Source: a virus
Strand: one strand, 5' to 3'
Virus record (IMG/VR): IMGVR_UViG_3300045131_002907
Location: 1 to 64,000 of that record
DNA length: 64,000 nucleotides
A program made the translations under genes and the position numbers. Shown here piece by piece: positions 1 to 61,025 of this stretch (its first letter is position 1; each line of letters opens with the position of its first letter). The notes beneath the pieces were generated by a model, which was not told the origin of the DNA, made no database searches, and saw only the letters and a list, made by a program, of their open reading frames with translations.

Positions 1-622
1 GCCAACCCAGTGGTTCAAGCCAACCCAGTGGTTCAAGCCAACCCAGTGGTTCAAGCCAACCCAGTGGTTCAAGCCAACCCAGTGGTTCAAGCCAACCCAG
101 TGGTTCAAGCCAACCCAGTGGTTCAAGTCAACCCAGTGGTTCAAGCCAACCCAGTGGTTCAAGTCAACCCAGTGGTTCAAGTCAACCCAGTGGTTCAAGT
201 AACCCCAGTAAGCCCAGTGGTTCAAGCCAACCCAGTGGTTCAAGCCAACCCAGTGGTTCAAGCCAACCCAGTGGTTCAAGTAACCCCAGTAAGCCCAGTG
301 GTTCAAGCCAACCCAGTGGTTCAAGTAACCCCAGTAAGCCCAGTGGTTCAAGCCAACCCAGTGGTTCAAGTCAACCCAGTGGTTCAAGTAACCCCAGTAA
401 GCCCAGTGGTTCAAGCAACCCCAGTAAGCCCAGTGGTTCAAGTAACCCCAGTAAGCCCAGTGGTTCAAGTAACCCCAGTAAGCCCAGTGGTTCAAGTAAC
501 CCCAGTAAGCCCAGTGGTTCAAGTAACCCCAGTAAGCCCAGTGGTTCAAGTAACCCCAGTGGTTCAAGCCAACCCAGTGGTTCAAGTAACCCCAGTAAGC
601 CCAGTGGTTCAAGTGGCTCAAG
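1..622 (+). repeat. Coding tandem repeat of 18-nt (SQPSGS) and 27-nt (SNPSKPSGS) units
   Basis: Direct tandem copies of agccaacccagtggttca and agtaaccccagtaagcccagtggttca with no unique spacers. Confidence 0.95.
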
Positions 623-58029: not shown

Positions 58030-58065
58030 GCATTCCAACCAATGCCCTTCGTTAAAGGAGGTTCC

Positions 58066-58407
58066 ATGAAAACACGTTTTCCTAATGGTACACCTTGTTA
58101 CCTCATTGCACTGAGGCGCTCCAAGCGCGGTAAACCCTCGGGGCATGCGGTCAGGAGACTGCGCCGTGAGGTCTTCTCCGAGTTCTTTGAATACGCCAAA
58201 GAATCTGTTGTTTTCGGCCACAGTGTTGGTGCCATGGTTTTCCGACTTCGTGATGGTGTCGACCCCCGGGAAGCCCTGCGGTACTGGCCGGATCACGGGG
58301 TCTGCCCGGCCTGCTTGCACCGGGCCATCACAGCGGGGACATGCTGTTTGTGTGGTGCCGACCCCGACAAGGTGGAATCACCATACAAACCAAAGGCGGA
58401 GACATGA
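58066..58407 (+). CDS. Zn-ribbon protein, tandem paralog A
   Basis: SD aaggagg; DHGVCPAC...CCLCG. Confidence 0.7.
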   Translation: MKTRFPNGTPCYLIALRRSKRGKPSGHAVRRLRREVFSEFFEYAKESVVFGHSVGAMVFRLRDGVDPREALRYWPDHGVCPACLHRAITAGTCCLCGADPDKVESPYKPKAET

Positions 58408-58706
58408 GAGTGCCACTTTGCTACGCCGAGGCCCTGAAGCACTCGCGTACAGGGAAGCCGTCTTCTGCGGTTCTCAAGAAGCTACGCGCCGCTGCTCTCG
58501 CCGAGTTCTTTGTCTTCGACCCCATCAAGTGGGTCTACCAGCTTCGCCCCGGGGTGAAGCCCAAGGAGGCCCTCAAACGTGTCAGTGATCACGGGGTCTG
58601 CCCGCACTGCCATCTCCGCTCACTCACCACGGGGTGTTGCCTGCAATGCGGGAAACGCCCCGATGAAGTCAAGAAGCCCTACAGTGGGCCCCAGGAGATC
58701 CCATGA
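58404..58706 (+). CDS. Zn-ribbon protein, tandem paralog B
   Basis: ATGA coupling; DHGVCPHC...CCLQCG. Confidence 0.7.
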   Translation: MRVPLCYAEALKHSRTGKPSSAVLKKLRAAALAEFFVFDPIKWVYQLRPGVKPKEALKRVSDHGVCPHCHLRSLTTGCCLQCGKRPDEVKKPYSGPQEIP

Positions 58707-59173
58707 AACACTGTACACCGGCGCCATCGTTTTGCTGTGTTATCACCGAGGGTCAGCGGATTCTTCGCATGAGACCCCCGCGGCGCTCGCTCCCCAAAGC
58801 CCAGATGGATGTCGCCCTCTGGAAGAAAGCCCACCCCGATTATGTCGAACGCCGAGATGGCAGCCTACCCCGTGTTGTCGCCACGCTCACGGGGTTTATC
58901 TGGGATGTCGAGGTCCCAGACCGATTCAAGTGGACCCGCTTCGTGAAACCAACGCCAGCGGTGGTCGCCCGATATCTCTCGACATATACTCAGACCCCAC
59001 AGGCGGGTCCGTTTGGGCGTTCCCAGTACCGTCTCAAGTTGAAGCGAGTTGACTGGAGGGGTTACCTGACATGTAACAACTGGCTCATCAAGGCCTGGGT
59101 GGAGTGGCCCCTGGCAGTCGATGTCAATCTGGTGACCCCGCGAGAAATCGAGTTCATCTGTCCCGTTCTCTAA
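58703..59173 (+). CDS. Hypothetical protein, probably truncated at the C-terminus by the tnpB element
   Basis: The last codons (V L stop) come from the element end; an in-frame continuation exists at 60565-60615. Confidence 0.65.
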   Translation: MKHCTPAPSFCCVITEGQRILRMRPPRRSLPKAQMDVALWKKAHPDYVERRDGSLPRVVATLTGFIWDVEVPDRFKWTRFVKPTPAVVARYLSTYTQTPQAGPFGRSQYRLKLKRVDWRGYLTCNNWLIKAWVEWPLAVDVNLVTPREIEFICPVL

Positions 59174-59320
59174 TTAGTTACCAGAATCTCACAATTCTGG
59201 GATTTCATTAGTTCCTGGTTCATCGACGGCAGTTTCGTATTTGTCCTGCGACGAATACCAGAGCTCCCAGTCTCCCCAGGCGTTGATTCCCGCACACGTG
59301 CGGTATTGAATAGATTTAAG
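59145..59320 (-). ncRNA. Predicted omegaRNA scaffold plus flanking guide
   Basis: Stems at the tnpB 3' end (ccgcac/gtgcgg, cctgg/ccagg, gtattcgtc/gacaaatac, ccagaat/attctgg), matching known TnpB locus architecture. Boundaries approximate. Confidence 0.6.
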
Positions 59321-60405
59321 CCCTGAGAACGAATGTTCTCAGCGGCGTTTTCATCCCTGTCATGGACTCTTCCACAATGTGGGCAAGCCCACTCGCGAAC
59401 TGACAGTGGTAGAGATTCCATTAGAAATCCACAACCACTGCAGGTCTTGGATGATGGAAAGAACCTATCGACTTCTTGGATGGCATCTGCCTTGTACCCA
59501 AGTTGTCTCACGATCTCACCCCAGCCGACATCGCTGATGGCCCTGGCGAGACAGTGGTTCTTCATCATCCCACTGACATTTAAGTCTTCAACACAGATCA
59601 CACTGAACCGTTTGGTTATCGCGGTTGTGATTTCGTGCTGCCAGCCCTTTCGGGTCTGGGCTACTTTCCAATGCAGCCTCGATAACTTATTGGCTGCTTT
59701 CTTACGGTTCTGAGAGCCCTTGACCTTCCGGGATAAACGACGACCCAGACGTTTAAGCCTGGTGATCGCTGATCTCAGTGGTCTAGGGGCCTCGAACTTC
59801 TCTCCAGTAGACAGTGTAATCGCTGAAGTTAATCCAAGATCGATACCAACACAGGATTCCGGGTTGGGGGTCTTTTCGATATCAGGGAGTTCGACCTGAA
59901 CGGAGATCCACCATCTCTGACCCTGGAAGGAGAGGCGTGTCGAGATTGGTCTGCCCTCGAACCTGAGTTCTTCCCGCATCTTGATCCAACCTATTTTTGG
60001 GAGCTTTATTTTATTACCATCAAAACTGAACTTATCGGGGCCATCTTCCAGCCGAGCAGACGCCTTGGAACGATGCCTGGACTTAAAGTCAGGCATTGAC
60101 ATCTTGGGGCCCTTACGTTTACCTTTAATGGAATCGAAGAAATTTTGATAGGCAATTCCAAGATTCTTAATGGCTTGCTGGACCACTGACTTCGGGACCG
60201 CATACATCCATGGAAACTCTACATCCTTAATGGAGTTTAATTCCTTTCGGAGTTCAGCTTCATTGGGCTTCTCCCCTGTATCGAAGCGTTCGCGCCATCT
60301 ATTCAGGGCCCAATTGTAGGCAAACCGAGCAGTGCCCACGCAACGCCGGAAGAACTCTTCCTGGGCATCCGTTGGGTCTAGCTGGATGACGTGGGATCGA
60401 ATCAC
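59170..60405 (-). CDS. tnpB: RNA-guided endonuclease TnpB
   Basis: GTARFAYNWAL, RuvC motifs GIDLG, VEDL and DRDENAA, and Zn finger CSGC...CPHC. Confidence 0.95.
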   Translation of the reverse strand: MIRSHVIQLDPTDAQEEFFRRCVGTARFAYNWALNRWRERFDTGEKPNEAELRKELNSIKDVEFPWMYAVPKSVVQQAIKNLGIAYQNFFDSIKGKRKGPKMSMPDFKSRHRSKASARLEDGPDKFSFDGNKIKLPKIGWIKMREELRFEGRPISTRLSFQGQRWWISVQVELPDIEKTPNPESCVGIDLGLTSAITLSTGEKFEAPRPLRSAITRLKRLGRRLSRKVKGSQNRKKAANKLSRLHWKVAQTRKGWQHEITTAITKRFSVICVEDLNVSGMMKNHCLARAISDVGWGEIVRQLGYKADAIQEVDRFFPSSKTCSGCGFLMESLPLSVREWACPHCGRVHDRDENAAENIRSQGLNLFNTARVRESTPGETGSSGIRRRTNTKLPSMNQELMKSQNCEILVTN

Positions 60406-60530
60406 TTCTTATCCATCTCACGCTGAATGAACGTACGTATGACTTCGGAGACCGAGACGCCCCTACGGGTAGCCTCGGCGCGGAGCCACTCCAGCATAGC
60501 TGGTGGGAAAAATATCTGTGATCGTATCAT
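60402..60530 (-). CDS. Ribbon-helix-helix (CopG-like) protein, 42 aa, not in the ORF track
   Basis: MIRSQIFFPPAMLEWLRAEATRRGVSVSEVIRTFIQREMDKK; GTGA overlap with the tnpB start. Confidence 0.85.
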   Translation of the reverse strand: MIRSQIFFPPAMLEWLRAEATRRGVSVSEVIRTFIQREMDKK

Positions 60531-60534
60531 GTGT

Positions 60535-60564
60535 AGTATCCTACCCCTGTACGGTGTATGTCAA
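60535..60564 (-). promoter_or_regulatory. Promoter TTGACA-N18-GATACT, probably giving a leaderless RHH-tnpB mRNA
   Basis: Perfect -35 box; the ATG is 4 nt after the -10 box and has no SD. Confidence 0.55.
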
Positions 60565-60656
60565 CCCACCACGATGACAGGAAACCGGGTGGTGGTGAAT
60601 GGCGTGATCTGGTAGTAAACCCAACACCGTTACTCTACCTTCTAAAGGACCCAATC

Positions 60657-61025
60657 ATGGAAGTCTCAGCTCCCGTTGTTGCAGTTGTATCCGGGAAGCC
60701 CAATAGGGTTCCCCTCCCCATACGCCCCACGATTTGGGGTCTGGTCCGCGCAGGTGTCGACTTTGATCATAGTGGACCTGATATCGCCGAACTATTCAAG
60801 AGGGGGTTCACTGAAGACGACCTCATTGAATCCGGGATCTGGCAGCGTGCCAGCAGGGGGCGTCTGGTCCGCACTTTCGGTGGGTTCGTGCAGCAGTGCT
60901 ATGAGCGCTGTGATTCCAATAGCACCGCGGTCCTCGAACTCGCCTCGTTGAACTGGAACCATGGAAACCGAACAATCAACACAGTTAGGAAAGAGCATGG
61001 CGTCCATCAAAATCGAAGAAACTAG
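60657..61025 (+). CDS. Hypothetical protein
   Basis: SD aaagga before ATG 60657. Confidence 0.55.
   Translation: MEVSAPVVAVVSGKPNRVPLPIRPTIWGLVRAGVDFDHSGPDIAELFKRGFTEDDLIESGIWQRASRGRLVRTFGGFVQQCYERCDSNSTAVLELASLNWNHGNRTINTVRKEHGVHQNRRN

What the first reader, a model, noticed from the sequence alone, without database searches (positions are those of the whole stretch)
59163..60615. Transposase-less RHH + TnpB element whose empty target site can be rebuilt exactly
Seen: a 42-aa RHH gene coupled (GTGA) to an intact tnpB, with a promoter filling the ~35-nt left end and no room for tnpA. CCC (GGG on the element strand) occurs at both junctions, 59162-64 and 60565-67. Joining them gives ...EIEFIC-P-TTMTGNRVVVNGVIW-stop, an in-frame C-terminus for gene 58703. 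Known: IS607 elements recombine at a GG dinucleotide using a serine recombinase and end in ...CGG. Inference: an autoregulated RHH-TnpB cassette that moved with a trans-acting TnpA, or that now spreads by TnpB-driven homing alone.
Basis: partly seen in the sequence, partly recalled or inferred. Interest (0 to 1): 0.7.

Follow-up and report, generated by a model that had tools for sequence, protein, structure and literature searches.

The report
Transposase-less Arc-TnpB element in phage
A 1.47-kb selfish DNA element carrying a small repressor-type gene and an RNA-guided DNA cutter (TnpB) sits between two genes of a large freshwater phage.

Summary
The parts are real: a 42-aa ribbon-helix-helix (RHH) gene overlaps by GTGA an intact 411-aa tnpB, a sigma70-like promoter precedes it, and there is no room for tnpA.

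A complete 216-kb sister phage and a second contig carry the empty site. There gene 58703 ends ...EIEFICPYY*, 9 nt before the next gene.

The right-end junction at 59164/59165 is correct. The left end is not at 60565-67 but about 70 nt further out, at 60627-60639. My preferred position is the GG core at 60638-39.

- The nearest genome-borne TnpBs have an overlapping serine-recombinase tnpA.
- The right end stops in ...AACGG, as in five relatives and in a second copy.
- The tnpB 3' end folds into a conserved guide-RNA scaffold containing a sub-threshold RAGATH-18 match at the expected distance.

The predicted guide matches the sister phage's empty site perfectly over 22 nt, next to TAGG.

Neither phage genome encodes a serine recombinase. 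The element most likely arrived by a trans-acting TnpA and spreads or persists by TnpB homing, with the RHH as an Arc-like autorepressor. These last steps are inferred.

Arc-TnpB elements were described in 2023-2026, and this scan has noted similar phage cassettes on other DNA. It is a new member of a known kind.

The parts
58703..59173 (+). Phage gene interrupted two codons before its stop. The element's right end supplies the new end ...CPVL*.
   Evidence: occupied alleles end CPVL, empty alleles CPYY. No Pfam family.
59143..59162 (-). Flank that the guide part of the omega/reRNA would be copied from (GACAGATGAACTCGATTTCT on the element strand).
   Evidence: It lies directly after the conserved ...AACGG scaffold end. 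A 22-nt identical stretch is present at the empty site of the sister phage. The 16-mer has one perfect hit in that 216-kb genome.
59163..59164 (-). GG (CC on +) that ends the right end; the IS607 core dinucleotide.
   Evidence: AACGG directly follows the stop codon in L084-L087 and L141, and in a second copy in run X2. Each is followed by unrelated DNA.
59163..59350 (-). Predicted guide-RNA scaffold (omega/reRNA), wholly inside the tnpB 3' coding region. It includes a RAGATH-18-like core at 59212-59280 and a terminal hairpin at 59181-59200.
   Evidence: RAGATH-18 scores 24.7 bits, cut-off 44.9, E 0.02-0.1. The fold has z -3.5. 23 of 61 consensus pairs show compensatory changes against IS607 relatives. 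The core ends 49 nt before the scaffold end, as in ISFba1 (PMC11061315).
59170..60405 (-). tnpB, 411 aa, GTG start, catalytic residues intact.
   Evidence: E 2e-67 to ISDra2 TnpB structures.
60402..60530 (-). 42-aa ribbon-helix-helix (Arc-like) gene; its stop overlaps the tnpB start (GTGA).
   Evidence: Homologous RHH genes stand in the same place before TnpBs in L005/L006/L019 and L010.
60535..60564 (-). Sigma70-like promoter TTGACA-18-GATACT, which would give a near-leaderless RHH-tnpB transcript.
   Evidence: 10 of 12 matches. It is not more than chance on its own; the placement is the argument.
60531..60637 (-). Left end, about 107 nt. It holds two 13-nt direct repeats GTGKTGGGTTKAC (60560-72 and 60615-27, the inner one over the -35 box), a 7-bp palindrome CCACCAC/GTGGTGG (60566-95), and TACCAGA inverted against the right end.
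   Evidence: The whole segment is absent from empty alleles.
60627..60637 (-). TAGAGTAACGG, a near-copy in direct orientation of the right-end terminus TAGAGAACGG.
   Evidence: A similar left-start/right-end likeness is seen in the serine-recombinase-bearing relative L086.
60638..60639 (-). Preferred left-junction GG core (model C). The alternative is 60627-28 (model B).
Evidence: Model C gives the empty site ...tgtcCC ttc TAA agga..ATG (CPF*). Its flanking motif AAGG differs from the right end's ACGG at position -3, the rule found for IS607 (10.1101/2023.11.20.567912).
60657..61025 (+). Downstream phage gene (MEVSAPVV...), which keeps its own AAGGA ribosome-binding site in the flank.

Best explanation
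This is a non-autonomous IS607-family element of about 1,475 bp (59165-60639). In place of the serine-recombinase gene tnpA it carries a 42-aa Arc-like RHH gene, followed by an intact tnpB whose last ~190 nt also encode the guide-RNA scaffold.

It is inserted at a GG two codons before the stop of a phage gene, in a ~216-kb freshwater jumbo phage. It is present in some sibling phages and absent from others.

Shown:
- The parts listed above.
- The insertion polymorphism and the right junction.
- The IS607-type right end and scaffold.
- The absence of a serine recombinase in the phage.

Inferred:
- A single promoter in the left end drives RHH-tnpB-scaffold and reads out into the flank, giving a guide GACAGATGAACTCGAT...
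- The RHH dimer binds repeats over that promoter and keeps expression low, as shown for Arc in IS605-family elements.
- TnpB plus guide cuts element-free sibling genomes at TAGG + protospacer during co-infection, and repair from the occupied genome copies the element in (homing).
- The first arrival in the phage needed a serine-recombinase TnpA supplied in trans by a host IS607.
For: - Empty site in relatives: L002, a 216-kb complete genome, and a 174-kb contig end CPYY*. Five contigs in three sequence variants end CPVL* with the element.
- A run from another study (X2) holds a ~95% identical phage with contigs bridging both junctions, plus a second, diverged copy elsewhere.
- IS607 type: the nearest genome-borne TnpBs (L085, L086, L153; 50-52% identity) have an overlapping serine-recombinase gene, and L087 has an internally deleted one.
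- The AACGG terminus is conserved across independent insertions.
- RAGATH-18-like core and compensatory pairs in the scaffold. RAGATH-18 RNAs are the guides of IS607 TnpBs (PMC11061315).
- TnpB is intact.
- RHH family assignment.
- The guide has a perfect, unique match at the empty site of the sister genome.
- No resolvase-family gene in G000 or in the complete G001, with a positive control in 12 of 14 genomes.
- Element GC is about 0.50, against 0.55-0.61 in the flanks.
- Arc binding and repression of transposon promoters, including arc+tnpB-only elements: 10.64898/2026.09.24.754181.
Against: - The left boundary is not fixed. The 17-26 nt between it and the next gene's ATG align poorly with the empty allele, and models B and C each have support.
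- The motif next to the target (TAGG or AAGG) differs from published IS607 motifs (TGGG, AGGAG, GAGGG), so cutting of the empty site is unproven.
- The promoter match is not above chance, and the candidate operator repeats are no more than chance would give.
- The RAGATH-18 match is below Rfam's cut-off.
- No read or contig in the four runs laid showed the empty form in the same sample.
- On a 200-kb sibling contig only a 137-aa TnpB piece was called, so the nuclease may be decaying in some lineages.
Confidence: 0.72

Rival explanations
1. The element moves only as a passenger. It is cut out and pasted by a serine-recombinase TnpA from an autonomous IS607 in the host. TnpB serves only to restore the element after excision, and the presence/absence pattern among phages reflects one insertion followed by descent and ordinary recombination, not homing.
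For: - The clade is full of autonomous IS607 copies and deletion derivatives.
- The ends keep IS607 features: the GG terminus, a ~100-nt left end with direct repeats as in IS1535 (PMC6188088), and TACCAGA inverted between the ends.
- A second diverged copy at another site in X2 shows transposition in this community.
Against: - No serine recombinase in the phage genomes, and the host is unknown.
- An intact nuclease and guide scaffold are kept in a lytic-type genome, where there is no sister chromosome to restore from other than co-replicating phage genomes. That amounts to homing.
Confidence: 0.3
2. The cassette is mainly a weapon in competition between phages. TnpB cuts the genomes of related, element-free phages that infect the same cell and so excludes them. 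The RHH limits self-damage, either as a repressor or as an antitoxin-like inhibitor of TnpB.
For: - Perfect protospacer in sibling phages.
- Homing endonucleases of phages are known to interfere with competitors (PMC11620839).
- RHH/MazE-TnpB pairs in archaea were proposed to be toxin-antitoxin pairs (PMC10691335).
Against: - Flanks about 96% identical on both sides would allow repair by copying, so exclusion and homing cannot be separated.
- The archaeal pairs have a rearranged RuvC-III site, which is not the case here (D351 kept).
Confidence: 0.2
3. It is an IS200/IS605-type (IS1341-like) single-strand element inserted cleanly 3' of an AGTA-type motif. Its boundaries would be 59165-60630, with no shared dinucleotide (model A).
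For: - Joining ...tgtccc to tactctacc... gives CPYSTF*, sharing 'tact' with the empty allele's 'tactatt'.
- The best solved relative is ISDra2 TnpB, an IS605 member.
Against: - Only 7 of about 150 related loci have a Y1 transposase match (one marginal, E about 3e-4), and all are distant, while dozens have a serine recombinase.
- The ...AACGG terminus and the RAGATH-18-like scaffold are IS607 marks.
- The hairpins in the two ends are unlike each other.
- Edit distance to the empty allele is 13, against 9 for model C.
Confidence: 0.08
4. One reading: the left end is the GGG at 60565-67, the left arm is a bare ~35-nt promoter, and gene 58703 originally carried a 16-aa tail PTTMTGNRVVVNGVIW.
For: - The join is in frame.
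- TGGG|TT at that point resembles the left junctions of L086, L087 and L153 and the published TGGG motif (10.1101/2023.11.20.567912).
Against: - No allele of the gene has that tail.
- The 70 nt are missing from both empty contigs.
- The proposed empty-site string has no hit in viral contigs.
- The segment contains a second copy of the 13-nt repeat, a copy of the right-end terminus, and the TACCAGA inverted repeat.
- Edit distance is 71.
Confidence: 0.03

Closest known systems
IS607-family TnpB systems with RAGATH-18-derived guide RNA (ISFba1 and relatives, Cell Res 2024, PMC11061315; CboIStron IS607, 10.1101/2023.11.20.567912)
   Same: - TnpB lies in the serine-recombinase-linked clade.
- The right end and scaffold end in ...CGG.
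- The target carries GG.
- The RAGATH-18-like core lies about 50-118 nt before the guide.
- The motif beside the target differs from the element's own end at position -3.
   Different: - No tnpA; an RHH gene stands in its place.
- The tnpB reading frame runs through the whole scaffold, whereas the ISFba1 scaffold is described as separate from the coding sequence.
- The flanking motif would be (T/A)AGG, not TGGG, AGGAG or GAGGG.
- The carrier is a phage.
Arc (RHH) repressors of IS605-family transposons, including arc+tnpB-only elements (Moon, Zedaveinyte, Wiegand & Sternberg, bioRxiv 10.64898/2026.09.24.754181; Arc-like ORFs first noted in 10.1101/2023.11.20.567912)
   Same: - A micro-protein of the RHH family lies inside the element next to tnpB.
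- A promoter lies directly upstream.
- The expected role is repression of the element's own promoter.
   Different: - Many of those elements have arc divergent from tnpB with a two-way promoter. Here arc and tnpB are co-directional and translationally coupled.
- The backbone is IS607-type, not Y1-type.
- Binding was not tested here.
IS1341-type tnpB-only elements and internally deleted IS607 copies
   Same: - They are non-autonomous and keep both ends and tnpB.
- L087 shows the deletion route within this very clade.
   Different: Here the tnpA slot is filled by an unrelated, conserved small gene rather than a remnant.
Archaeal RHH/MazE-TnpB pairs (clade RIIIr-4; Altae-Tran et al. 2023, PMC10691335)
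   Same: A small RHH gene stands directly upstream of tnpB.
   Different: - Those are archaeal, reported as immobile, and have RuvC-III Asp replaced by His.
- Here the canonical D-E-D is kept and the unit is an insertion polymorphism.
Free-standing homing endonuclease genes of phages (T4 seg/mob)
   Same: - It lies between two conserved genes and is present or absent among close relatives.
- Spread is expected by cutting the empty allele during co-infection.
   Different: The target is read by a guide RNA copied from the flank, not by the protein.

Membership tests
IS607 family | Encodes a serine-recombinase TnpA (MerR-type HTH + resolvase domain) | tested here: not met
   There is no space in the element. 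No PF00239 match in G000 or the complete sister genome G001, with a positive control. It can therefore be at most a non-autonomous derivative.
IS607 family | TnpB belongs to a serine-recombinase-associated lineage | tested here: met
   The sister group in the tree (L085-L087) and most of the wider clade carry an overlapping serine-recombinase gene. Y1 transposases occur only on distant branches.
IS607 family | Ends terminate in GG, insertion at a GG, no inverted terminal repeats and no target duplication | tested here: inconclusive
   - Right end: met. AACGG is conserved in seven independent insertions, and the empty allele has GG at the junction.
- Left end: a GG is available at 60638-39 or 60627-28, but which one is used could not be fixed.
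IS607 family | RAGATH-18-type guide RNA downstream of or overlapping the tnpB 3' end | tested here: inconclusive
   Rfam RF03064 scores 24.7 bits against a cut-off of 44.9. The position relative to the scaffold end and the compensatory changes support it.
Arc-containing TnpB elements | RHH-fold gene inside the element boundaries, next to tnpB | tested here: met
   RHH_1 hits 5 of 5 homologues, and RHH antitoxins VapB26 and CdbA are found in the PDB. The gene lies between the left end and tnpB.
Arc-containing TnpB elements | Arc binds the element's promoter and represses it | not testable with these tools
   Only candidate repeats over the -35 box were found; they are not above chance.
IS200/IS605 family | Y1 (HUH) TnpA, or similar subterminal hairpins at both ends recognised by it | tested here: not met
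   No Y1 gene is present. The hairpins of the two ends (CCACCAC... and CCAGAAT...) are unrelated. Relatives with Y1 are distant.
Archaeal RHH/MazE-TnpB (RIIIr-4) | RuvC-III Asp replaced by His; immobile | tested here: not met
   DRDxNAA is kept with D351. The unit is an insertion polymorphism.

The most novel reading that the evidence does not exclude
In uncultured jumbo phages, IS607-derived Arc-TnpB cassettes have given up transposition altogether. They live as RNA-guided homing elements, or gene drives, that pass between co-infecting sibling phages. They use a (T/A)AGG flanking motif not yet reported for IS607 TnpBs, and the repeated swap of tnpA for the same small RHH gene on three separate TnpB branches marks this change of lifestyle.
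Probability: 0.3. Interest if true: 0.6.

Novelty: new member of a known kind. Interest (0 to 1): 0.35.

Why it matters
It gives a natural, well-bounded case in which a TnpB element without any transposase is polymorphic among nearly identical phage genomes, and the guide still matches the empty allele perfectly. That is the situation predicted by the view of TnpB as a homing endonuclease.

It extends Arc-TnpB pairing from Y1-type to IS607-type backbones. It also offers a compact 411-aa nuclease with a possibly new flanking motif.

It does not open a new category. The pairing, the repressor role and the homing idea are all in the literature of 2023-2026, and the scan has met similar phage cassettes before.

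Tried and rejected
The contigs of the 60-91% identical TnpBs (P0002-P0063) and of the 76% identical RHH (P0132) could not be fetched. This blocked the cleanest way to fix the left end.
Left-end and second-copy right-end strings also gave none.
- A word-based homologue search with the 42-aa RHH found only two clusters, too few to test co-occurrence.
- Complex prediction of TnpB with two RHH copies gave no answer (score 0.00). This says nothing either way.
- I tried to find the empty site of the second X2 copy in G000 from its 7-nt flank. Matches were at chance level and the position was off by about 300 nt, so I dropped it.
- Fragments in the Planctomycetota genome that holds the closest genomic TnpB (58%) are cut by contig ends or belong to other TnpB types.
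- Read laying showed no contig joining across the element in four runs. Contigs drop rare variants, so this is no evidence of absence.
- CT-rich loose ends in X4 look like artefacts.
- I considered a domesticated, nuclease-dead regulator (TldR-like) and rejected it, because D-E-D and the zinc finger are intact.
Full report
**What is there.** The window is part of a 75-kb IMG/VR virus record, estimated 35% complete. On the minus strand, 59170-60405 encodes a 411-aa TnpB. Pfam OrfB_IS605 (E 6e-28), the Cas12f1-like TNB domain and HTH_OrfB_IS605 are all above cut-off. ISDra2 TnpB structures match at E 2e-67. In an alignment of 36 homologues the RuvC residues D189, E273 and D351 and the zinc-finger cysteines are invariant and present here.

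Directly upstream, 60402-60530 encodes 42 aa whose stop overlaps the tnpB GTG start as GTGA. Alone it scores below Pfam's RHH cut-offs. RHH_1 hits all five members of its small family (best E 1e-6), and a profile of the family finds the RHH antitoxin VapB26 and CdbA among solved structures.

A TTGACA-18-GATACT site ends 4 nt before the RHH ATG. One such site is what shuffles give, so only its placement speaks for it. There is no room for a transposase gene.

**The empty site.** Gene 58703 has one close relative in viral contigs, on a 216-kb genome with terminal repeats, judged complete.
- There the gene ends ...EIEFICPYY*, and the next gene (MEVSAPVV..., window 60657) starts 9 nt later.
- That genome has no TnpB.
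- The protein cluster of gene 58703 holds alleles ending CPVL on five contigs, in three sequence variants. This is the ending the element creates.
- It also holds alleles ending CPYY on two contigs (174 and 216 kb). Nothing else is present.
- Nucleotide identity to the sister is about 96% up to ...tgtccc (59164) and stops there.
- On the other side it resumes cleanly only at about 60655, just before the ATG.

The proposed empty-site string has no hit.

A run from a different study (X2) holds a ~95% identical phage.
- Its contigs bridge both junctions.
- It also holds a second copy, about 85-88% identical, elsewhere. That copy's right end reads ...CTAATAGAGAACGG followed by AGTTC.
- One 14.6-kb contig carries both copies in opposite orientation, about 13 kb apart.
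- G000 has only one copy.

**Which family.** About 150 loci with related TnpBs were collected.
- The nearest genome-borne ones are from Competibacteraceae (L085, L086, L153; 50-52% identity). They have a 190-aa serine-recombinase gene overlapping the tnpB start.
- L087 has the same gene with an internal deletion.
- Across the set, dozens have a serine recombinase. Only seven loci, all distant, match a Y1 transposase, one of them marginally.
- Directly after the stop codon, L084-L087 and L141 read (A/G)CAACGG followed by unrelated DNA. The window reads AGAACGG. This is the IS607 hallmark of ends terminating in GG (PMC6188088), and of a scaffold ending ...CGG (10.1101/2023.11.20.567912).
- Rfam gives one match in the region: RAGATH-18 at 59212-59280(-), 24.7 bits against a cut-off of 44.9.
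- RAGATH-18 RNAs are the guide RNAs of IS607 TnpBs. In ISFba1 the motif lies at -51 to -122 from the guide (PMC11061315). Here it lies at about -50 to -118.
- The 3' 240 nt fold better than shuffles (z -3.5). A consensus fold with five IS607 relatives keeps the RAGATH-18 outer stem and inner stems through compensatory changes, in 23 of 61 pairs.

I therefore file it as a non-autonomous IS607-family derivative. The membership table shows that the defining transposase is absent.

**The left end.** Three placements were weighed.

Model C puts the GG core at 60638-39.
- The empty site becomes ...tgtcCC ttc TAA agga cccaatc ATG (CPF*).
- It accounts for all the extra DNA.
- It gives a flanking motif AAGG. 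Like the sister's TAGG, this differs from the element's own ACGG at position -3, the self/non-self rule found for the Clostridium IS607 (TGGG against TCGG).
- The same rule holds in a multi-copy control family I aligned (flank GGAG against end GCAG).
- It makes the left end start with TAGAGTAACGG, a direct near-copy of the right terminus TAGAGAACGG. A comparable likeness exists in L086.

Model B puts the core at 60627-28.
- It places the 13-nt repeat GTGTTGGGTTTAC right at the boundary.
- It puts the TACCAGA inverted repeat at equal distance from both termini.
- Its flanking motif would equal the element's own end.
- The ancestral gene would run on into its neighbour.

Model A is a clean join at 60630/60631. 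It fits no 2-bp exchange.

My odds are C 0.55, B 0.25, A or other 0.2. All three reject 60565-67.

**How it probably works.** The first four points are inference from the literature. The last two are observations here.
- The left-end promoter would transcribe RHH, tnpB and the embedded scaffold and run into the flank.
- TnpB processes its own mRNA into the guide RNA (PMC10278001).
- The guide would be GACAGATGAACTCGATTTCT.
- Arc-type RHH proteins of IS605-family elements, including arc+tnpB-only elements, bind the element's promoter and repress it (10.64898/2026.09.24.754181).
- Here the inner 13-nt repeat and a 7-bp palindrome flank the -35 box, but such repeats are not above chance.
- The sister's empty site keeps 22 identical nucleotides of protospacer next to TAGG. 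The 16-mer has a single perfect hit in that genome.

With about 96% identical flanks, a cut would be repaired from an occupied genome in a mixed infection. This is homing, as proposed for TnpA-less TnpB elements (PMC13565253).

No resolvase-family gene exists in G000 or the complete sister genome. The first insertion therefore needed a host-borne IS607 transposase. The element's GC (0.50 against 0.55-0.61) fits a foreign origin.

**RHH association.**
- Homologous RHH genes (40-76% identity) precede TnpBs in L005/L006/L019, which include a 217-kb phage contig, and in L010. They also occur on P0132's contig.
- On the TnpB tree these sit on three separate branches among serine-recombinase-bearing relatives. 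The swap of tnpA for this RHH has therefore happened repeatedly, or the RHH module moves.
- Other relatives keep only the MerR-type DNA-binding head of TnpA (L016, L054).

**Novelty.**
- Arc-like ORFs next to TnpB were reported in 2023 (10.1101/2023.11.20.567912) and shown to be repressors in 2026.
- RHH-TnpB pairs in archaea were described in 2023 (PMC10691335).
- IS607 TnpB guide RNAs were characterised in 2024.
- Earlier notes of this scan list several phage-borne Arc-TnpB cassettes with sister-phage empty sites on other DNA.

New here are the IS607-type backbone, the co-directional coupled arrangement, a coding frame running through the entire scaffold, and a possible (T/A)AGG motif. Verdict: a new member of a known kind, and an instructive but not surprising one.

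**Limits.**
- The complex prediction gave no answer.
- The left boundary, the flanking motif, RHH binding and homing remain untested.

Noticed in passing
window 14-575: A long array of a unit repeated every 18 nt (GGGTTGGCTTGAA... on the minus strand), seen as a by-product of a motif search.
   Followed up: no
window 58042-58407 and 58341-58706: Two neighbouring ~120-aa genes are paralogues. Both have ...RxGKPSxxxxxxLR... and a C-terminal GVCPxC...CCxxCG zinc-ribbon-like motif, and neither matches a Pfam family. Both are also present in the sister phage.
   Followed up: no
run X2, contig of 14.6 kb (corresponds to about G000 73.5-75 kb): The ~95% identical phage in another study carries a second, inverted, ~85% identical tnpB copy about 13 kb to the right of this one. 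G000 has no such copy, so this is another insertion polymorphism.
   Followed up: partly
P0128 (200,634-nt JGI contig): On one sibling phage contig only the C-terminal 137 aa of this TnpB were called as a gene. tnpB may be broken in that lineage.
   Followed up: no
L087:2418-2510: A Competibacteraceae IS607 copy whose tnpA is reduced by an internal deletion to a ~30-aa remnant fused in front of an intact tnpB. It is a direct example of how non-autonomous copies arise in this clade.
   Followed up: partly
L016:2334-2504 and L054:129-371: TnpB relatives preceded by only the MerR-type helix-turn-helix head of the serine transposase (56 and 80 aa), without the catalytic domain. This may be another route to a DNA-binding regulator in the tnpA slot.
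   Followed up: no
L095-L109, L158 (one beta-proteobacterial MAG): At least 11 near-identical full IS607 copies. Aligning them gives exact ends (AG|GCTGACTC ... GATAGCAG), an invariant GG before the left junction, and flank GGAG against own end GCAG. This matches the published AGGAG motif of IS607 TnpBs.
   Followed up: partly
window 59181-59200 (+): The complement of the scaffold's terminal hairpin scores as a terminator-like site just after the new stop of gene 58703. It may end transcription coming from the phage gene.
   Followed up: no
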